A stretch of DNA of 24,318 bases from a virus (lineage: Duplodnaviria > Heunggongvirae > Uroviricota > Caudoviricetes), in IMG/VR virus record IMGVR_UViG_2740892258_000019, one strand, 5' to 3'. The notes below the pieces were generated by a model. That model saw only the letters and a list, made by a program, of their open reading frames with translations. It was not told the DNA's origin and did not search any database. This document shows positions 6,926-19,555 of the stretch, piece after piece (within the stretch, counting starts at the first letter, position 1; every line of letters begins with the position of its first letter). The position numbers and the translations under genes are program-made.

Positions 6926-7747
6926 TTATCCTCTCAGTTCCTGTTGTGCCAGTGGCTGAAGCGTACCCTGATAGCGGGCCAGGTCGGGACGGTATGCTGC
7001 CCCCGGTGCATAAGACCAGCCGACGTCGGTGGTCACCTTCGTAGTGCCGGTATTAAAGGTGGCCACGTTCCGCATTTCGCCGGTTTTCTCTGAGACCAGT
7101 TTCAGTTCCTGGCCCATGGCAGAGCCGGAGCTGATAACCTTCAGGCCACGGGCACGTACATCCGCCGCACTCAGGGCAATCACACTACAGCGGCAGCGCC
7201 AGCCGTTCGGCGGGTAAAATGCCTGCCAGAACGGGTCATCCCAGCGCAGCACCAGACCATGCAGCGCCAGATGGCTCCTGCGGGTATGGCTGTCGTTGAT
7301 GCCGGTATACATCCAGTACGGCCTGTCGTCGACGTTTTCCATCTGTTCCGCCCAACGACCGGCGCTGTAGAGTACGGACATATTGGTGCGAAAGATGGTA
7401 TCGAGCCGCCACGGACTGCCCTGCTGAATGGTGACCGGCTCACCCGTTACCGGGTCAGTCGTGTCACGTGGTCCCCACCATCCCTTACGCTTCAGCACCG
7501 GCTCCAGCTCCTGCCGGAACCAGCGATCGGTTTTTCCTTCATCGACAGCCTGCTGCAGTGCCCCGCGAATATCTTCCAGAATATCCAGGCGGGTCACTTT
7601 AGCGACGGTAAAGGCGCGGGCATGGGCTTCCTGCCACATTTCTTCCCAGTCCCAGGTAATCTGATACCCTTTGGACTTCAGGTAACTGACTGCCCGCTTC
7701 GGGGGAAGCGTCATGCAGTACGCCAGTTCAGCCGTTGTCACGCTCAT
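6926..7747 (-). CDS. head morphogenesis protein (Mu gpF family)
   Basis: Contains NGWRCRC motif of the Mu F domain; start chosen at internal ATG preceded by GGGGG; track ORF extends to 7774. Confidence 0.7.
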   Translation of the reverse strand: MSVTTAELAYCMTLPPKRAVSYLKSKGYQITWDWEEMWQEAHARAFTVAKVTRLDILEDIRGALQQAVDEGKTDRWFRQELEPVLKRKGWWGPRDTTDPVTGEPVTIQQGSPWRLDTIFRTNMSVLYSAGRWAEQMENVDDRPYWMYTGINDSHTRRSHLALHGLVLRWDDPFWQAFYPPNGWRCRCSVIALSAADVRARGLKVISSGSAMGQELKLVSEKTGEMRNVATFNTGTTKVTTDVGWSYAPGAAYRPDLARYQGTLQPLAQQELRG

Positions 7748-9245
7748 GCAGACGCCCCCAGATATTTGCCACAAAGAGAATGCGGGCCAGCCGTTCCTGC
7801 AGATCGTCCGTGTTCATCTGAGGGTAGAGCTCCGCCAGTTCGCCCAGCAGCTCAGACGGGTTAACCCCGTTTTCGACCCGCTTAAACAGAGGTGCCAGGA
7901 CGGGTTCCAGCGTGCCATTTAACACACCTCCGTTCATCAGAATGTCCAGCGCGTCGTCAAGCTGCTGCTGAGCCTGAATATCGGCATCAATCGCCTCGGC
8001 AAATGACAGCGGCAGCATGTTCTTCTCGCGTTCTGACGGTGGTGTCTCGTCAATATCGCCGTCCTGCAGCTGGTACTCACGCTTGAAGTATTGCGGGGTC
8101 AGACGCAGACCCGCCCGGGTGAGTTTTTCGTCGCGGGTGGCACGGGTGTCATCAATGGCCTCCTGTTCCCACATGGCCCAGACCGGACACGGCACATCGC
8201 CGAAGTTCAGGGTGACCACCGTTCTGATGACCTGATTCACTGCCGCCTGAATGATGTCCGCATCCGCATCGCGGATATCAGCCGTTACCTCCAGCCCGGC
8301 CTGTGCAGAGGCCTTGTTACTGTTCGCTTCCGTGGTCTGATTCTGACCGAGTAATGCAATGGAGATCTCACTGCGTGACAGCGTGATCAGCTCGCGGAAT
8401 ACCTCGCTGCTGTCCGCCTTGCCATCCGCGGCTTTGAGTTCGATGCTGCTGTCATCGGGGATGGCGGCCACCGCGTCCTCCACCATCTGCTCCATGGAGT
8501 CCAGCAGTTTTTCAATCTCTGCATCATTTGCACCCCTCGGGTGCTTACCGATCACCCATGGGGAGCCAAACTTTTCGGCAAAGCGGAGCCAGAATTTCAT
8601 CCCGCCTTTCTTGAAGGCGACCGGCCAGAAGCACATGGACAGGTCAGGGAAACCGTAAGGATTGTCATACGAGGCATCCTGTGCCGGCACCACGAATTTT
8701 GACGGTGACAGCAGCTCACCCTCCACACCCGCATCACGCGCCCGGAAGCGCAGGCAGTTGTCCGTATCAAACTGAAACCACTCAGGCGGTTTGCCGACAA
8801 TATCCGTCACCGCCCACGCCCTGACCGAACGGCCCCACATGATTTCACAGGGCTGATACCCGTAGAGCACGGCATCGCTCATCTCACCGATGATGCGGGA
8901 CAGATCCAGATCGTCGAGCATGTCGCGGATGAAACGGAAGACCCGGGCAGAAGCGTGACCGCGCTCCAGTCCACGCTCCAGTGATTTGAGCGCTGCTTTA
9001 CGTCTGCGGATACAGCCCCCGACCAGCGGGTCGGTGCGCAGTTCGCGGTAGATACGGATATCCCGTCCCTGAGCCTTGAGAATGGGATCAGGGTTGGGCA
9101 GGTACATTCCCAGAGCGTAAAAGTCGATGGCGCGACTGCGCGAGGCAATCTGCGCGGTCAGTGATGCAATCTGCGCGGTCAGTGATTTTTTGGGTTCGGT
9201 GAACGCCACGAACTCATCGGGTGAAACCCAGATACCTTTTGCCAT
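7728..9245 (-). CDS. portal protein (Mu gp29-like, DUF935 family)
   Basis: 505 aa between terminase and F; ATG overlaps the terminase stop (ATGA); carries a 7-aa tandem repeat SLTAQIA x2. Confidence 0.85.
   Translation of the reverse strand: MAKGIWVSPDEFVAFTEPKKSLTAQIASLTAQIASRSRAIDFYALGMYLPNPDPILKAQGRDIRIYRELRTDPLVGGCIRRRKAALKSLERGLERGHASARVFRFIRDMLDDLDLSRIIGEMSDAVLYGYQPCEIMWGRSVRAWAVTDIVGKPPEWFQFDTDNCLRFRARDAGVEGELLSPSKFVVPAQDASYDNPYGFPDLSMCFWPVAFKKGGMKFWLRFAEKFGSPWVIGKHPRGANDAEIEKLLDSMEQMVEDAVAAIPDDSSIELKAADGKADSSEVFRELITLSRSEISIALLGQNQTTEANSNKASAQAGLEVTADIRDADADIIQAAVNQVIRTVVTLNFGDVPCPVWAMWEQEAIDDTRATRDEKLTRAGLRLTPQYFKREYQLQDGDIDETPPSEREKNMLPLSFAEAIDADIQAQQQLDDALDILMNGGVLNGTLEPVLAPLFKRVENGVNPSELLGELAELYPQMNTDDLQERLARILFVANIWGRLHERDNG
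9145..9186. repeat. perfect 21-bp tandem duplication (2 copies) inside portal gene
   Basis: gcaatctgcgcggtcagtgat at 9145-9165 repeated exactly at 9166-9186. Confidence 0.9.
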
Positions 9246-10258: not shown

Positions 10259-10268
10259 GGTGCTGCTG

Positions 10269-12104: not shown

Positions 12105-12603
12105 AACTGCTGCCTCCCCATGTGAGATATCGCGGTGCCAGTTCGCGCAGGATGCGCTGCGGATAATGGCGGTTCTCCCGCCAGCTGGCCGCATTGCGTC
12201 CGGCATTCACCGTGGCGACATGTCCGAACCAGCGGGTGCTGTCCAGCCCCTGCTGCGAGGCCAGCCGTTTGTCCCGCTGTACCCAGCCCAGACCACCGTT
12301 ATAGCCTGACAGCGTCATGGCCATACGCTCGCAGTCACTGGCGGCGCTGACGCGTTGCCACAGCCAGCGGTCATAGCTGACCAGCGCCCGGATGGCCCAC
12401 GCCGGATTAAACGGTTCACGGCTGTTAAGCCCCGGCATCAGCTGACTTATCCAGTCAGCGGTGGTGGGCATAAACTGCGCCAGTCCCTGAGCGCCAGCCG
12501 GCGAGACCGCATCAGGTCGCCAGCCGCTTTCCTGATGCAGCTGCGCGGCGAAGTCGGCCACCGGCGCAGACAGTCCCCATTCAAGCCGGGCATTACGGAT
12601 CAC
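12088..12603 (-). CDS. endolysin catalytic portion (lytic transglycosylase, SLT-like motifs HQESGW / GLAQFMP / YNGG); gene split by upstream 56-bp duplication
   Basis: 171-aa ORF with only a GTG start; reading frame continues upstream into duplicated sequence until a stop created by the duplication. Confidence 0.65.
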   Translation of the reverse strand: MIRNARLEWGLSAPVADFAAQLHQESGWRPDAVSPAGAQGLAQFMPTTADWISQLMPGLNSREPFNPAWAIRALVSYDRWLWQRVSAASDCERMAMTLSGYNGGLGWVQRDKRLASQQGLDSTRWFGHVATVNAGRNAASWRENRHYPQRILRELAPRYLTWGGSSCVASG

Positions 12604-12708
12604 ATCATCGCGATACTGCAGCGCAACCTGCGGAGGCTGCGCTGCGCATGCCGGATCACATCATCGCGATACTGCAGCGCAACCTGCGGAGGCTGCGCTG
12701 CGCATGCC
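12597..12708. repeat. perfect 56-bp tandem duplication (2 copies) at the junction of two endolysin ORF fragments
   Basis: ggatcacatcatcgcgatactgcagcgcaacctgcggaggctgcgctgcgcatgcc at 12597-12652 repeated exactly at 12653-12708. Confidence 0.9.
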
Positions 12709-13484: not shown

Positions 13485-14255
13485 ATGAAAATGCAGACAT
13501 TACCCATCGTTCCATGGATTGGTGGCAAACGCCGCCTTGCAAAACACATCCTGCCGCTGTTTCCGGCGCATGAATGTTATGTGGAGCCGTTTTGTGGGGC
13601 AGCAGCGCTCTATTTTCTTAAGGTACCCGGCAAGATCGAAGTCATTAATGATATCAACGGTGAGCTGGTGAACCTGTATCGGGTGGTAAAACATCATCTG
13701 GAAGAATTTGTACGCCAGTTCAAATGGGCGCTGGTCAGCCGGCAGATCTACAAATGGCTGCAGATCACCCCGGAAGAAACACTGACGGATATCCAGCGTG
13801 CAGCACGGTTCTACTACCTTCAGAAGCAGGCGTTTGGGGGCAAGGTGGCGGAGCACAGCTTTGGTACCTCCACCATATCCCCGCCACGCTTCAACCTGCT
13901 GCGTATTGAAGAAGAACTGTCAGCGGCACACCTGCGGCTTTCCAGAACGGTCATAGAACACATGGACTGGCAACAGTGCATAGAACGATATGATCGCCCG
14001 CATACGTTGTTCTACTGTGACCCTCCATACTGGGGAACGGAAGGTTATGGTGTGGAGTTCGGACTAGAAAATTATGATCATATGGCAGATTTAGCACGCA
14101 GGATCAAAGGGAAGATGATTATATCGGTGAACGATATCCCGGAAATGCGGCAGGCATTCAACGGTCTAAATATTCAGTCGGTTGATATCAGCTACAACCT
14201 CAAGATCACTGGCAAATCCAGTCGCAAGAAGGAACTCATTATCCTCAACTTTTGA
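13485..14255 (+). CDS. Dam-family N6-adenine DNA methyltransferase (orphan)
   Basis: 256 aa with N-terminal PWIGGKRRL (AdoMet motif) and catalytic DPPY motif (FYCDPPYWG); no adjacent nuclease-like gene recognised. Confidence 0.85.
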   Translation: MKMQTLPIVPWIGGKRRLAKHILPLFPAHECYVEPFCGAAALYFLKVPGKIEVINDINGELVNLYRVVKHHLEEFVRQFKWALVSRQIYKWLQITPEETLTDIQRAARFYYLQKQAFGGKVAEHSFGTSTISPPRFNLLRIEEELSAAHLRLSRTVIEHMDWQQCIERYDRPHTLFYCDPPYWGTEGYGVEFGLENYDHMADLARRIKGKMIISVNDIPEMRQAFNGLNIQSVDISYNLKITGKSSRKKELIILNF

Positions 14256-15450
14256 CCGAATAGTAAGACTTCATGCAGTGAATCAAGTACTGCATGAAGT
14301 CAAGGGCTGGTTTTGTGTACCAAAAATAAACAGTGATAGCGGTAATAATTCCCATAACTAGAACACCACGTATAATCCAGAACGTACGTTTCTGCGTGTC
14401 TAGTCGCGCAGAAATACTGCTAAATACACCAGCCACGTCATCTTTAATGAAGGAATATTCCTTATTAATCTGTTTTTCTTTGTATTCAATTTCTTCGCCT
14501 AAGGCCTTTATAGATTGCATCTGGTTCGAAAGTGCCAGCCAGATTAACGTTGCAGCAAAAATGCATCCCAGAAGAATTATTGTGTTTGTTATCCCTTGGC
14601 CTGACCATTTCGTAGCCACTTTGAATTGGGTAGCTACGATAACAGAGGCAACAGGAATGCCAAGTATATGGTTCTGGATATCTGAAAACGCTTTGTGGAT
14701 TTTACCCATTTCTTCGACTTTTGCAGCACGCAGTTGATCCATTACTTTGTCATAAGAGAATCCAGAAGAGTAGATACGATACCCTTTCAGAAACTTTTCA
14801 TGCAGACGCTGAATATTGTCCAGTAAATAAGCGAATACTAGAGGTGAATCAATTCCATCACTAACTGCTTGAATACTTTCAATCAGAATATCTAGCTTCT
14901 GATCCTTATGGGTATCATCATTGAAACAAGCTATAAGGTTATCAAGATACTCCCTTTGCAAATTTTGTACATTTTCTGCAGCGAAGTGCGGTAATAGCTT
15001 GATAACTTCTTTTTTCAGAAAAACTAACTGACAAGTTGAGTTATCAAAGTAGGCCGCGGCCTCTTTTAGCAGGTTAACGAACTCGAGAATCTTCCGGTAG
15101 TTGCTGATGAAAACGGGGATATCTTCATCATCATTACGAAATTTTGTTTCTAGGATGAAGTAATTAGCTGGCTCAAGGCACTGATGCTTTGGAGCATTTA
15201 GCAATTTTTCATGGGTGGAAAACACAAGTCCCAGTCCACTCCGTGGTGACGTCACACGTAGGATGATCGTGTTACCTGGAGCGATAGTGCCTGTATCAAT
15301 AGAAAGACCATATTCACGAGGATCATCAAGCAAAGTATCAACCAGATCACAATCGGACTGATCTAAGAGCAACAGCGAACCGACACGAAACCCCTCTTGG
15401 AATTCCATACGACGATACAGAGCTGTCAGCATCTCAAATGAAATCGCCAC
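14245..15450 (-). CDS. 401-aa protein with large cytoplasmic N-domain and two C-terminal transmembrane helices; second gene of repressor-linked cargo pair
   Basis: Low-GC ORF; TM segments ITNTIILLGCIFAATLIWLAL and FWIIRGVLVMGIITAITVYFW; 2-bp gap after upstream gene; no known catalytic motif. Confidence 0.7.
   Translation of the reverse strand: MAISFEMLTALYRRMEFQEGFRVGSLLLLDQSDCDLVDTLLDDPREYGLSIDTGTIAPGNTIILRVTSPRSGLGLVFSTHEKLLNAPKHQCLEPANYFILETKFRNDDEDIPVFISNYRKILEFVNLLKEAAAYFDNSTCQLVFLKKEVIKLLPHFAAENVQNLQREYLDNLIACFNDDTHKDQKLDILIESIQAVSDGIDSPLVFAYLLDNIQRLHEKFLKGYRIYSSGFSYDKVMDQLRAAKVEEMGKIHKAFSDIQNHILGIPVASVIVATQFKVATKWSGQGITNTIILLGCIFAATLIWLALSNQMQSIKALGEEIEYKEKQINKEYSFIKDDVAGVFSSISARLDTQKRTFWIIRGVLVMGIITAITVYFWYTKPALDFMQYLIHCMKSYYSVKS
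14268..14300. terminator. 12-bp perfect inverted repeat hairpin at the convergence of dam and the cargo cassette
   Basis: acttcatgcagt-gaatcaagt-actgcatgaagt; no clear U-tract; lies within the last codons of the minus-strand gene. Confidence 0.35.
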
Positions 15451-15452
15451 GA

Positions 15453-16460
15453 TTAAACCTCAGTCATCCACATTTCCCTAAATTCTTCAGGTACATTACG
15501 TAGGGTGATAATATTTGTTTCCGGATCATAATCAATATAGCCTTCAGTTTTCCCTTCCCGGTCAAACTTAAGTTCCCAATATTTAGACTTGCCTTTAAAA
15601 GATACCAGAGCCCGAATGACTCGACCATCAGGAACGAAGCCATCCGATAACTCCAACTCTTCAGCAGCAAGTTTACCAGATAACTCCTCGGGAGCCTGGG
15701 GCCAAATGGCATTAACAAGGGTTTCAAGACTAAGTGGTTCACCAGCCTTACTTAGTGCATGTAAGTGTTCAAACGCACTCTTAAGAAATGCATCTTTTTC
15801 AGCGCCGTCAAGTCCTTTCTCTGCCGCAAATGCTTTTAAAACGTCACGTAACTTTTCAGACTCTCGTTTGGCGATTAAGACATCATTACAGCCTAGGAAC
15901 TGTTTAAAATAGTTTGAAACATTACCTTGCCCCTTAAGAAAACTGATATAGCGCTCTGCGCCACTTTCCCACGCGGTTAAGTCAATGCGCCCAGCCATAC
16001 GCAGCTTAGCAATATCAAGATAGGTACTATCTTGGATGTTAAAATCATCTGTGACAGTGGACCCAATGGTAGCGCTTACAATAGCTATCAACAGGTGTTC
16101 ATTGTGTCCTATCACGATATTTGCAAAAAGAACATAACCACCAGTAGCCATGTTTTCTCGCTGAGAACGTTCCGTCAGGTGATGCATCATTCGGCAGGAA
16201 CTTTGGTAGAAATCATCAACACCTTCGAGAAAGTCCCCAGCCATTCGTTCCATAGGATAGTTATCCGTATCGCCTTCAAAATAGCCATAACCTTTACCTG
16301 TGCGTCCTGCATATTTTGCACAAATATCGTTTATAAGGCGCTGAGAGGCTTCAGTAACTAGACCTTCTTCAGGACTCAATCTCTCAGAAGCGTCTCCATT
16401 TTGTTGTTTGTCTAAAATGTGAACTACAACGTGTTTAACTTCAATGGTCTGCTCAGACAT
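15453..16460 (-). CDS. NdpA/YejK-like nucleoid-associated protein family (NA37-like) homolog; first gene of cargo pair
   Basis: 335 aa (same length as E. coli YejK); N-terminal KHVVVHIL, GKGYGYF, central GGYVLF, IDLTAWE...YISFLKG and C-terminal YDPETNIITL pattern match my recollection of the NdpA family; SD AAGGTGGA upstream. Confidence 0.6.
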   Translation of the reverse strand: MSEQTIEVKHVVVHILDKQQNGDASERLSPEEGLVTEASQRLINDICAKYAGRTGKGYGYFEGDTDNYPMERMAGDFLEGVDDFYQSSCRMMHHLTERSQRENMATGGYVLFANIVIGHNEHLLIAIVSATIGSTVTDDFNIQDSTYLDIAKLRMAGRIDLTAWESGAERYISFLKGQGNVSNYFKQFLGCNDVLIAKRESEKLRDVLKAFAAEKGLDGAEKDAFLKSAFEHLHALSKAGEPLSLETLVNAIWPQAPEELSGKLAAEELELSDGFVPDGRVIRALVSFKGKSKYWELKFDREGKTEGYIDYDPETNIITLRNVPEEFREMWMTEV

Positions 16461-17251: not shown

Positions 17252-18363
17252 ATAAACCAAATACATCAAGCTCAGGTATCCGTATTTTGCGCGTTCTTAA
17301 GGCCTTACGTGGCCACGCTTTGAACGGTGTTTCTAACGGGGAACTAGCGGTTGCACTGCACGAATCACCGGCAAACATCAACGGCAGATTGATGCCTCGC
17401 TCTGCACGCTTTACTACCTGAGCAATGGACACAAAGGGCTGCAGGTGATGGACAGCGCGAAATTCTACAAGAACAAGCCCGCTAACCTTGCCCGTATCGC
17501 CAGTGACCGCGTGTGGAGTTATGAGATTACCGACCATGCCAGCGGCTGGATTTACGTTGAGTATGTGACGGGTGCGGAATCCGGTGAGAACCTGTGTTCT
17601 GTGCTTATCAACGCCATGCAGGAGCGTGGCGGCGCAGACGTGCTGCACGGCGTGCCAAAAATACTCTATCTCGACCCCGGCTCGGCAAACACCGCGGGTA
17701 TGACGAAAAACATGTGCCGCTCACTGGGCATTGACCTGATAGCGCACAAGCCGCATAACGCCCGCGCCACCGGACAGGTGGAAAAGGCGCGGGACATTAT
17801 CGAACGCAAGCTGGAGCCGGGTCTGAAGTTCCGGCCGGTTCACAGTCTGGAAGAACTCAACGCGCTGGCCGCGAAATGGCGCAGCCACTTTAACGCCACG
17901 GCTGTTCACAGCCGCCACGGTAAAACCCGCACGGATATCTGGCTGAAGATTACTGCTGAGCAGCTGAAAAAAGCGCCTTCCGTTGAGGTATGTGGTTACC
18001 GGTACAGACAACGCCGCAGATGCAGCCGCCGCACGCAAGGCGAAGGCGCTGCCGTTCGGCGGGCGGCTTGACCCGTATAAACATATCGACGACACCACAC
18101 TTCCGGCCTATATGCCGAAGCGTGGTCAGGCCTCTGACGTACGCGGGCCGCGCACTGAACAACGTCCCATGACTCATGTGGAGGCCGCGAAAGCCCTGCG
18201 CGATAAGTTCAGCGCCGACGGCCTTACCTGGACGCCGGAACATTACCGCCAGTTAACGGCACAGTACCCGGACGGCGTACCGGAAGCCGCACTGGATGAA
18301 GTCATGGCCACGCTGACCACACCGGCCAGCAGCAGTGTTATCAGCATTGTTAACGGCAACTGA
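17248..18363 (+). pseudogene. Mu-type DDE transposase A, disrupted: 57-codon N-terminal fragment, DDE-core ORF and C-terminal ORF in three different frames
   Basis: Strong SD AAGGAGG + ATG at 17248 but stop after 57 codons; DDE-core motifs restart at 17445 in another frame; frame changes again near 17985-18000; locus codes at most ~370 aa vs ~660 for MuA. Confidence 0.6.
17445..18071 (+). CDS. DDE transposase catalytic-core fragment (rve-like: ITDHAS ... LYLDPGSANT ... GQVEKARD)
   Basis: 208-aa ORF with D, D, E-containing motifs at the spacing expected of Mu-type transposase cores; ends in Arg-rich out-of-frame tail. Confidence 0.5.
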   Translation: MMDSAKFYKNKPANLARIASDRVWSYEITDHASGWIYVEYVTGAESGENLCSVLINAMQERGGADVLHGVPKILYLDPGSANTAGMTKNMCRSLGIDLIAHKPHNARATGQVEKARDIIERKLEPGLKFRPVHSLEELNALAAKWRSHFNATAVHSRHGKTRTDIWLKITAEQLKKAPSVEVCGYRYRQRRRCSRRTQGEGAAVRRAA

Positions 18364-18373
18364 GGAGGGAAAC

Positions 18374-19555
18374 ATGCTGGTACTGAAGCAGCAACTGAAA
18401 GAGGCCCGTATTCCACAGGCGGTGGTGGCGAGAGCTGTCGATGTTTCTGAGGCCACGCTGGCCCAGATTGTGAATCATAACGCGTGGCCCCGCACCAGCC
18501 CCGGAGAAGTGCGCCGGCGTCTTGCGTCCTGGCTGGAAAGTCAGGGGATTGATACAACGAAGAGTTTTGATGCTGTACAGGGCGCGGCCACGCCCCGTAC
18601 AGCGGGTACCACAGATAAAACGAGCCTCAGTGAGGAAGAGAATATGTTACTCAAAAAACAGGTGTTATTTCCAGCAACCAAAAAAGCGTTTGGTCTTTTC
18701 CGTGACCCGTTCGCCGACGAAGCCATGCAGGGTTCTGATGATGTGTTCACCACCCCGGATATTCGCTACGTGCGTGAGGCGTTGTACCAGACAGCCCGTC
18801 ATGGTGGGTTTATGGCCGTCATCGGTGAGTCCGGTGCGGGTAAATCCACGCTGCGCCGCGACCTGACTGAACGTATCAACCGCGAGAATGCGCCGGTAAT
18901 TGTTATCGAGCCATACATCATCGCTATGGAAGACAACGATGTGAAAGGGAAAACCCTGAAGGCAGCAGCGATTGCCGAAGCCATTATCAGTACCATCGCA
19001 CCACTGGAAAGCATCAGACGCAGTCAGGACGCCCGCTTTCGCCAGTTGCATCGCGTCCTGAAAGACAGCAGCCAGGCGGGGTTCAGCCACGTTCTGGTGA
19101 TTGAGGAGGCCCACAGTCTGCCCATTCCGACACTGAAACACCTCAAACGGAAACACCTCAAACGCTTTTTTGAGCTGGAGTCCGGTTTCAAAAAACTGCT
19201 GTCCATCGTGCTGATTGGCCAGCCGGAACTGGCGACAAAACTGTCTGAACGCAATATGGAAGTCCGTGAAGTCGTTCAGCGCTGTGAGGTGGTCGAACTT
19301 CTGCCTCTGGACAATAACCTTGAAGAGTTTCTGACGTTCAAACTGCAACGGGCCGGTAAACAACTGACGGACATTATGGACGCCAGCGCAGTGGATGCCA
19401 TACGTGCCCGCCTGAGCAATCCGGGAAGTCATCGTAAAAATATGGTCAGCCTGCTGTATCCGCTGGCCGTCAGTAACCTGGTAATAGCCGCCATGAATCT
19501 GGCCGCTGAAATCGGGGTTCCACAGGTCAACGCTGACGTTGTCAAAGGGGTTTAA
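18374..19555 (+). CDS. Mu B-like transposition ATPase (AAA+; Walker A GESGAGKST, Walker B VLVIEEAH)
   Basis: Start at ATG after GAGGAGGG; 393 aa; contains 5-aa tandem repeat KHLKR x2. Confidence 0.8.
   Translation: MLVLKQQLKEARIPQAVVARAVDVSEATLAQIVNHNAWPRTSPGEVRRRLASWLESQGIDTTKSFDAVQGAATPRTAGTTDKTSLSEEENMLLKKQVLFPATKKAFGLFRDPFADEAMQGSDDVFTTPDIRYVREALYQTARHGGFMAVIGESGAGKSTLRRDLTERINRENAPVIVIEPYIIAMEDNDVKGKTLKAAAIAEAIISTIAPLESIRRSQDARFRQLHRVLKDSSQAGFSHVLVIEEAHSLPIPTLKHLKRKHLKRFFELESGFKKLLSIVLIGQPELATKLSERNMEVREVVQRCEVVELLPLDNNLEEFLTFKLQRAGKQLTDIMDASAVDAIRARLSNPGSHRKNMVSLLYPLAVSNLVIAAMNLAAEIGVPQVNADVVKGV
19135..19164. repeat. perfect 15-bp tandem duplication (2 copies), in frame, inside B gene
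   Basis: gaaacacctcaaacg at 19135-19149 repeated exactly at 19150-19164. Confidence 0.9.

What the first reader, a model, noticed from the sequence alone, without database searches (positions are those of the whole stretch)
9145..9186. Perfect 21-bp in-frame tandem duplication in the portal gene
The 21-bp unit is duplicated exactly, adding a 7-aa repeat (SLTAQIA x2) near the portal N-terminus without breaking the frame. A perfect copy implies a very recent event. Together with the 15-bp and 56-bp duplications, this is three perfect tandem duplications in 24 kb, suggesting replication slippage or relaxed selection on this prophage.
Basis: seen in the sequence. Interest (0 to 1): 0.4.

Follow-up and report, generated by a model that had tools for sequence, protein, structure and literature searches.

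The report
Private 21-bp duplication, probably assembly artefact
The perfect 21-base duplication in the phage portal gene is really in this sequence, but it exists in only one draft E. coli assembly. There it sits among six other clean insertions and deletions with no base substitution at all, so it is most likely an assembly error rather than biology.

Summary
**Observation:** confirmed. Window 9145-9186 is GCAATCTGCGCGGTCAGTGAT twice, 100% identical. It is in frame in the Mu-type portal gene (7728-9245, minus strand) and turns SLTAQIA into SLTAQIASLTAQIA, giving 505 aa against 498 aa in relatives.

**Source:** the window is contig CVOH01000150.1 of draft assembly GCA_001245225.1.

**No relative has the second copy:**
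- none of the E. coli complete-genome matches;
- none of 117 portal relatives at 57-98% identity, where this N-terminal segment has fixed length;
- none of the public contig collections scanned;
- the exact 505-aa protein occurs on one contig only.

**Decisive context:** against the intact prophage of E. coli GIMC1410:G-002-25 the window has zero substitutions over 24.3 kb but six indels.
- Duplications of 21, 56 and 15 bp.
- Deletions of 289, 1568 and 320 bp.
- All have 0-1 bp of junction microhomology.
- A seventh, a 160-bp deletion, hits the host gene hglS 4 kb outside the prophage, in a flank otherwise identical to strain NU14.
- Two intact prophages differ from each other by 97 substitutions and no indel.

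**Verdict:** this does not fit slippage or prophage-specific decay. The best reading is contig-join or gap-handling errors in one draft assembly (about 0.68). A genuine private mutation remains possible (about 0.22). Only the raw reads can decide. Low interest.

The parts
9145..9186 (-). Perfect 21-bp x2 tandem duplication. It covers codons 21-34 of the portal gene (SLTAQIA SLTAQIA) and has 0 bp of junction microhomology.
   Evidence: It is absent from all relatives.
7728..9245 (-). Mu-type portal gene (gp29 / DUF935). It is 505 codons here and 498 in the otherwise identical prophages.
   Evidence: Pfam PF06074 at 2.9e-90. PHROG 113 at 2.8e-163.
10262..10263 (-). Junction of a 289-bp deletion that removes codons ~4-100 of the large terminase and shifts the frame. 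A 337-aa 3' ORF remains. Microhomology is 1 bp.
   Evidence: Pfam Terminase_6N starts at profile position 73.
12596..12708 (-). Perfect 56-bp x2 tandem duplication (periodic stretch 113 bp, 1 bp extra). It frameshifts the SLT-domain transglycosylase (endolysin) gene.
17382..17383 (+). Junction of a 1568-bp deletion. It removes the 3' part of an HTH gene, the whole DUF3102 gene and the 5' part of the DDE transposase gene. Microhomology is 0 bp.
17993..17994 (+). Junction of a 320-bp deletion inside the transposase gene. Microhomology is 1 bp.
19135..19164 (+). Perfect 15-bp x2 tandem duplication in the MuB-like AAA+ transposition protein gene (18374-19555). It is in frame and adds KHLKR (393 aa against 388 aa). 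Microhomology is 0 bp.

Best explanation
The second 21-bp copy is most likely not in the bacterium's genome. It looks like one of at least seven join or gap-handling errors in contig CVOH01000150.1 of the draft E. coli assembly GCA_001245225.1.

**Proposed mechanism (inferred).** The contig was stitched together from smaller pieces.
- Where neighbouring pieces overlapped by a few bases and were butted together without merging, the overlap appears twice. This gives the perfect 15-, 21- and 56-bp tandem duplications.
- Where pieces separated by unassembled sequence were butted together without a gap marker, the missing stretch appears as a clean deletion of 160, 289, 320 or 1568 bp.

**Underlying biology.** The sequence beneath these errors is an ordinary, probably intact, BcepMu-like transposable prophage inserted in gapC of a phylogroup-B2 E. 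coli. Its portal would be the normal 498 aa.

**Shown:** the lesions, their privacy to one assembly, the absence of substitutions, the lack of microhomology, and the lesion in a host gene.

**Inferred:** the assembly mechanism. I could not identify the pipeline used.
For: 1. **Source.** The window is 100% identical to positions 60-24377 of CVOH01000150.1, a 57.7-kb contig of a multi-contig draft assembly.
2. **Indels without substitutions.** Against the prophage of E. coli GIMC1410:G-002-25 there are 0 true substitutions in 24.3 kb. The two listed by BLAST are over-extension into the 56-bp repeat. There are 6 indels. Strain N61 gave the same identity and bit score but was not compared in detail. 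Two intact copies (M-17 and GIMC1410) differ by 97 substitutions and 0 indels over 22,429 bp. By my own arithmetic, a Fisher test of 0:6 against 97:0 gives about 7e-10.
3. **Not confined to the prophage.** The 5-kb host flank is 100% identical to NU14 and other B2 strains except for a 160-bp deletion in hglS with 0 bp of microhomology. That makes 7 indels and 0 SNPs in 29.5 kb. Extrapolated to 5 Mb, this would be about 1,200 mostly gene-breaking lesions, which is hard to reconcile with a viable isolate (inference).
4. **Junction overlaps are 0, 1, 0, 1, 0, 1 and 0 bp**, as expected for arbitrary breakpoints.
5. **Privacy to one contig.** The 505-aa portal, the 393-aa MuB-like protein and the 337-aa terminase remnant each occur on one contig only in the gene index. 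Their listed source is NCBI and not Logan, the independent re-assemblies of public read sets, whereas the intact forms are listed from NCBI, Logan and ENA.
6. **Junction searches.** No complete E. coli genome (5,426) carries the 21-bp junction. The junction 33-mer is absent from genome contigs, viral contigs and metagenome contigs.
7. **Conserved segment.** The insertion sits in a strongly conserved, length-invariant segment of the portal. The WVSP-to-LPNPD spacing is 36 in 108 relatives and 37 in 9 relatives, against 43 here.
8. **Literature.** Contig edges are a recognised source of misassemblies (PMC3446322). Scaffolders place overlapping contigs side by side with 'negative gaps' (PMC5368935).
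Against: - No read data could be examined, so nothing here proves the copy is absent from the organism.
- The 29.6 kb of the contig that I could read contains no N or other gap marker.
- The three duplications differ in length (15, 21, 56 bp). They are therefore not a simple k-1 overlap from one de Bruijn graph.
- A 1568-bp gap is longer than ordinary paired-end inserts span.
- The assembler and pipeline are unknown. The accession was not found in the literature.
- Absence from Logan is weak evidence, because I cannot show that this isolate's reads are in that collection.
- Two of the three duplications are in frame. This is mildly more expected for real, tolerated mutations, although 2 of 3 by chance is not unusual.
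Confidence: 0.68

Rival explanations
1. The duplication is a genuine, very recent, strain-private mutation in a prophage that is being inactivated. Under this reading the terminase deletion, endolysin frameshift and transposase deletions are real knock-outs. The in-frame 7-residue portal insertion is a neutral passenger in an already dead prophage.
For: - The sequence is deposited as such, and the portal frame is preserved.
- Three of the other lesions hit genes whose loss locks or disarms a transposable prophage: transposase, terminase and endolysin. Selection against induction could favour such losses.
- Perfect identity of the copies, and absence from all relatives, fit a very young event.
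Against: - One knock-out is enough to disarm a prophage, so selection cannot explain six hits.
- Neutral accumulation of six indels of at least 15 bp with zero substitutions contradicts the 97:0 substitution-to-indel ratio seen between intact copies.
- No microhomology is present at any junction, whereas slippage and RecA-independent deletion in E. coli normally use short direct repeats. The statement about the mechanism is established knowledge.
- An identical type of lesion lies in host hglS outside the prophage.
- None of the three lesion-bearing proteins is seen in any other assembly or in Logan.
Confidence: 0.22
2. The lesions are real and record a local burst of homology-independent end joining or illegitimate recombination in and next to the prophage. 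Candidate causes are gyrase-mediated (quinolone-induced) short-homology-independent recombination, or joining of breaks protected by the prophage's own Ku-like Gam protein.
For: - Seven junctions with 0-1 bp of microhomology cluster in 29.5 kb.
- The prophage encodes a Gam family host-nuclease inhibitor (Pfam Phage_Mu_Gam).
Against: - No known bacterial process gives perfect 15-56 bp tandem duplications together with clean deletions and no substitutions.
- Nothing shows that the events are local rather than assembly-wide.
- All the privacy arguments made for the artefact apply equally here.
- The idea is purely speculative.
Confidence: 0.05
3. The two-copy heptad is a functional or conserved feature of this portal lineage, for example an adaptive extension of an N-terminal helix or a copy-number-variable (contingency) repeat.
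For: - The duplication is in frame, and seven residues is about two helical turns.
- A helix is predicted over residues 22-33, but at pLDDT below 50.
Against: - All 117 relatives keep one copy and a fixed spacing.
- Every fetched locus and every listed E. coli genome is single-copy.
- No copy-number polymorphism was seen anywhere.
Confidence: 0.02

Closest known systems
Mu-family portal protein (gp29 / gpH; Pfam PF06074 Portal_Mu / DUF935; solved portals 9khx and 8rka)
   Same: There is a full-length match to PF06074 and PHROG 113. Sequence similarity to the solved portal chains 8rka_A and 9khx_X covers residues ~79-501. The gene order gp27 - large terminase - portal - Mu F-like - Mu G-like is kept.
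   Different: It has seven extra residues (a second SLTAQIA) in the conserved N-terminal segment that is single-copy in every relative examined. This segment lies outside the part alignable to the solved structures.
BcepMu-like transposable prophage of E. coli (Escherichia phage PhiKM PQ738613, genus Bcepmuvirus; prophages of strains GIMC1410:G-002-25, N61, M-17, KE50)
   Same: Apart from the indels it is identical in sequence to the GIMC1410 prophage, and it has the same gene content. N61 gave the same identity and bit score. Like other members it sits at a different chromosomal site in every genome, here in gapC.
   Different: It carries three perfect tandem duplications and three deletions found in no other copy.
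Slipped-strand (replication slippage) in-frame tandem duplications
   Same: It is a head-to-tail perfect copy, short, and preserves the frame.
   Different: There is no direct-repeat microhomology at the borders and no copy-number variation among relatives. It is accompanied by deletions that also lack microhomology.
Contig-join / gap-closure misassemblies in short-read draft genomes (overlapping contig ends concatenated; gaps collapsed)
   Same: The lesions are private to one draft assembly. The duplicate copies are perfect and the deletions are clean, with arbitrary breakpoints and no accompanying substitutions. They occur in prophage and host genes alike. General descriptions of such errors are in PMC3446322 and PMC5368935.
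   Different: There are no Ns at the joins, the overlap lengths vary, and the pipeline is unknown. This is not confirmed with reads.

Membership tests
Mu-type portal protein (PF06074) | Full-length match to the family profile above the curated cut-off | tested here: met
   303.4 bits against a cut-off of 23.9, profile positions 2-336 of 336. PHROG 113 at E=2.8e-163.
Mu-type portal protein (PF06074) | Position in the head module, directly after the large terminase and before the Mu F-like protein | tested here: met
Replication-slippage tandem duplication | Short direct repeat (microhomology) at the borders, so that the periodic stretch is longer than 2 units | tested here: not met
   The periodic stretch is exactly 42 = 2x21 + 0 bp. 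The 15-bp repeat gives +0 and the 56-bp repeat gives +1.
Replication-slippage tandem duplication | Single-copy ancestral state in close relatives | tested here: met
   All listed E. coli genome matches are 21 bp shorter. All fetched loci read ...KKSLTAQIASRSR....
Conserved or copy-number-variable protein repeat | Two or more copies, or variable copy number, in independent relatives | tested here: not met
   117 relatives have a spacing of 36 or 37 residues, and none has the insertion.
Decaying (cryptic) prophage under relaxed selection | Inactivating lesions in essential phage genes | tested here: met
   Terminase, endolysin and transposase are all disrupted in the deposited sequence.
Decaying (cryptic) prophage under relaxed selection | Lesions confined to the prophage and accompanied by substitutions in proportion | tested here: not met
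   There are 0 substitutions against 6 indels, while intact copies differ by 97:0. The same type of deletion occurs in host hglS.
Assembly (contig-join / gap) artefact | Present only in one assembly, with no independent sequence carrying the junction | tested here: met
   One contig in the gene index. No junction in the 5,426 complete E. coli genomes or in three contig collections. IMG/VR has low power, because only 2 contigs hold the intact site.
Assembly (contig-join / gap) artefact | Gap markers (N runs) or a documented scaffolding history at the joins | tested here: not met
   There is no N in the window, L008 or L009. The pipeline could not be traced.
Assembly (contig-join / gap) artefact | Raw reads contradict the assembled junction | not testable with these tools
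   No access to read archives.

The most novel reading that the evidence does not exclude
All seven junctions are real and record a burst of homology-independent breakage and rejoining in and beside a transposable prophage of a clinical E. coli. The cause might be gyrase-mediated illegitimate recombination or end joining assisted by the phage's Ku-like Gam. The burst would have produced both perfect short tandem duplications and clean deletions within a time too short for a single substitution.
Probability: 0.05. Interest if true: 0.55.

Novelty: not a real feature. Interest (0 to 1): 0.08.

Why it matters
The main value is quality control. The same window contains at least six such lesions. 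Any first-stage finding built on them would rest on the same probable artefact. That includes the 15-bp and 56-bp duplications, the 'truncated' terminase, the 'split' endolysin, the 'remnant' transposase and the label 'defective prophage'. All of these should be down-weighted together.

If the lesions turned out to be real, they would show an unusual homology-independent mutational burst. They would also show that a seven-residue insertion in a highly conserved portal segment can be carried, though only in a prophage that is already dead.

Tried and rejected
- **Conserved or adaptive repeat.** Rejected. 117 relatives and all fetched loci are single-copy.
- **Microhomology-mediated slippage.** Rejected. 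There is 0 bp of overlap at the junction.
- **Prophage-specific decay.** Weakened by the hglS deletion in the host flank.
- **Finding the same isolate in an independent (Logan) assembly.** I looked up the terminal 53-aa prophage gene and searched for the gapC insertion site. The gene is in 15,839 blocks, and the 10 places shown all have other insertion sites. Dead end.
- **Tracing the assembly or its pipeline in the literature.** CVOH01 gave one unrelated paper and GCA_001245225 gave none. A Velvet/SSPACE/GapFiller origin is only a guess. The GapFiller paper describes closure rules that would not by themselves create these junctions.
- **Structural placement of the insertion.** The AlphaFold2 model is poor (mean pLDDT 57.8, residues 1-57 below 50). 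The solved Mu-type portals align only from residue ~79. Nothing can be said about structural effect, and no fold search was run on this model.
- **IMG/VR junction scans.** All were negative. A control shows only two IMG/VR contigs hold the intact site, so these scans carry little weight.
- **GC content of the 'deleted' segments.** Unremarkable at 0.50-0.57, against 0.54 for the prophage.
- **Reaching the remaining 28 kb of the contig.** Not possible, because look-ups are limited to window-encoded proteins.

Full report
**1. The observation**

Window 9145-9186 is GCAATCTGCGCGGTCAGTGAT repeated twice without a mismatch (TRF: period 21, 2.0 copies, 100%; raw sequence). The periodic stretch is exactly 42 bp. 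The bases on either side break the period, so the junction has no microhomology. About 5.5e-9 such repeats are expected by chance in 24 kb.

The repeat lies in ORF 7728-9245 on the minus strand. This ORF translates to a 505-aa protein that begins MAKGIWVSPDEFVAFTEPKKSLTAQIASLTAQIASRSRAIDF. The protein is a Mu-type portal: Pfam PF06074 at 2.9e-90 and PHROG 113 at 2.8e-163. It is flanked by gp27, a large-terminase ORF and a Mu F-like gene.

**2. Do relatives carry it?**

No relative examined carries the second copy.

- **Phage records.** Phage PhiKM (genus Bcepmuvirus) and two other phage records align only up to the repeat.
- **Complete E. coli genomes.** In 5,426 genomes, 619 carry a related site. 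Every listed full-length match to a 551-bp query is 530 or 528 bp long, which is 21 or 23 bp shorter. A 70-bp query centred on the junction finds only matches spanning 49 bp in two pieces.
- **Fetched loci.** All seven read ...KKSLTAQIASRSR... with one copy.
- **Protein relatives.** 117 cluster representatives at 57-98% identity, from Enterobacterales to Burkholderia and Chromobacterium, keep the distance from the WVSP motif to LPNPD at 36 (108 proteins) or 37 (9 proteins) residues. The window protein has 43. The insertion therefore sits in a conserved segment of fixed length.
- **Contig collections.** The junction 33-mer is absent from the genome, viral and metagenome collections. A control shows IMG/VR holds only two copies of the intact site, so that null result is weak.

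**3. Where the window comes from**

The exact 505-aa protein is on record for one contig only: CVOH01000150.1 (57,681 bp) of the NCBI draft assembly GCA_001245225.1. The window equals positions 60-24377 of that contig.

The 393-aa MuB-like protein (with the 15-bp duplication) and the 337-aa terminase remnant are also singletons. Their source is listed as NCBI only, not Logan. The intact versions are listed from NCBI, Logan and ENA.

**4. The context that changes the reading**

I compared the window with the intact prophage of E. coli GIMC1410:G-002-25. Strain N61 gave the same identity and bit score in the search. The window shows no true substitution over its whole length. The two 'mismatches' reported by BLAST are over-extension into the 56-bp repeat. 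The window shows six indels:

| Lesion | Window position | Gene affected | Effect | Junction overlap |
|---|---|---|---|---|
| +21 bp | 9145-9186 | portal | in frame | 0 bp |
| -289 bp | 10262/10263 | large terminase, codons ~4-100 | frameshift | 1 bp |
| +56 bp | 12596-12708 | SLT transglycosylase | frameshift | 1 bp |
| -1568 bp | 17382/17383 | HTH gene, DUF3102 gene, 5' of transposase | genes lost | 0 bp |
| -320 bp | 17993/17994 | transposase | deletion within the gene | 1 bp |
| +15 bp | 19135-19164 | MuB-like ATPase | in frame | 0 bp |

By contrast, two intact copies of this prophage (M-17 and GIMC1410) differ by 97 substitutions and no indel over 22,429 bp. By my own arithmetic, a Fisher test of 0:6 against 97:0 gives about 7e-10.

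The 5 kb of host DNA that I could reach beyond the prophage end is 100% identical to NU14 and many other B2 strains. The one exception is a 160-bp deletion inside hglS (ydcJ), again with 0 bp of junction overlap.

In total there are seven clean indels and no SNP in 29.5 kb, and one of the seven lies in a host gene.

**5. Interpretation**

Replication slippage predicts short direct repeats at the borders, and none is present. Relaxed selection on a prophage predicts lesions confined to the prophage and accompanied by substitutions, and neither holds. Selection against prophage induction could fix one knock-out but not six.

A density of one lesion per ~4 kb, if it applied genome-wide, would give about 1,200 mostly disruptive lesions (inference). 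That is hard to reconcile with a cultured isolate.

The simplest account is that the deposited contig was stitched from smaller pieces. Small overlaps between neighbouring ends were written twice, giving the perfect short duplications. Unassembled gaps were closed up without a marker, giving the clean deletions. Contig edges are a recognised source of misassembly (PMC3446322). Scaffolders do place overlapping contigs side by side with negative gaps (PMC5368935).

I put this at about 0.68. The weak points are:
- no reads were seen;
- the accessible 29.6 kb has no Ns;
- the overlap lengths differ;
- one gap is 1.6 kb;
- the pipeline could not be identified.

A genuine strain-private mutation set remains possible (about 0.22). 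A real homology-independent rearrangement burst is a long shot (about 0.05). A functional repeat is essentially excluded (about 0.02).

**6. If the duplication were real**

It would add seven residues (about two helical turns if the segment is helical) to a conserved N-terminal stretch. The AlphaFold2 model is too poor there to say more (pLDDT below 50 for residues 1-57). The solved Mu-type portals align only from about residue 79. In the deposited sequence the prophage lacks a working transposase, terminase and endolysin, so the portal would not be under selection anyway.

**7. Comparison with the known, and verdict**

The gene is an ordinary member of the Mu portal family, in an ordinary BcepMu-like transposable prophage that is very widespread in E. 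coli. Its terminal gene is listed in 15,839 index blocks, with a different insertion site in each place read. Here the prophage is inserted in gapC.

The duplication is a singleton of one draft assembly and is most probably not a real feature. Interest is low. The practical consequence is that the sibling findings in this window (the 15-bp and 56-bp duplications, the truncated or split genes, the 'defective prophage' label) share the same doubt. The decisive test is a k-mer count or read mapping on the isolate's raw reads.

Noticed in passing
window 12596-12708: Perfect 56-bp x2 tandem duplication that frameshifts the SLT-domain transglycosylase (endolysin) gene. It is absent from all relatives and belongs to the same class of lesion as the 21-bp repeat.
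   Followed up: yes
window 19135-19164: Perfect 15-bp x2 tandem duplication. It is in frame in the MuB-like AAA+ transposition protein and adds KHLKR (393 aa against 388 aa). It is a singleton in the public gene index.
   Followed up: yes
window 10262/10263, 17382/17383, 17993/17994: Three clean deletions relative to intact copies, of 289 bp in the large terminase, 1568 bp across the early region and transposase 5' end, and 320 bp in the transposase. Each has 0-1 bp of junction overlap, and there is no substitution anywhere in the window.
   Followed up: yes
L009 20085/20086 (contig CVOH01000150.1, about 4 kb beyond the window end): A 160-bp deletion splits the host gene hglS (ydcJ) into 171-aa and 213-aa ORFs. 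The flank is otherwise 100% identical to strain NU14. This shows the lesions are not confined to the prophage.
   Followed up: yes
L009 15946-16638 (just beyond the window end): The prophage is inserted in gapC, leaving a 169-aa Gp_dh_N remnant. Ten other genomes carry this prophage at ten different chromosomal sites, as expected for a transposable phage.
   Followed up: partly
window 13485-16460: An accessory block lies between the lysis genes and the repressor. It holds an orphan Dam-type methyltransferase (13485-14255, plus strand), a 401-aa protein of unknown function (14245-15450, minus strand; PHROG 5023; weak KwaA/Kiwa-like hit at E=8e-5) and an NA37 nucleoid-associated protein (15453-16460, minus strand). 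The block is conserved in intact relatives and could be a moron or defence cargo.
   Followed up: no
proteins P0001, P0011, P0027 (relatives found): Other singleton aberrant portals exist in public assemblies. One is a 622-aa chimera of two portal variants. One is a 554-aa fusion of portal residues 1-322 to a tail sheath. One is a 528-aa fusion to a PF02620 domain. They suggest that structural oddities in this gene are common products of assembly or of prophage decay.
   Followed up: partly
window 1 and 24318: Both window ends coincide exactly with CDS boundaries of the homologous intact prophage (L006 1001 and 27403). The contig itself ends only 59 bp before window position 1, so the tape-measure gene and the rest of the tail module are on another contig.
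   Followed up: partly
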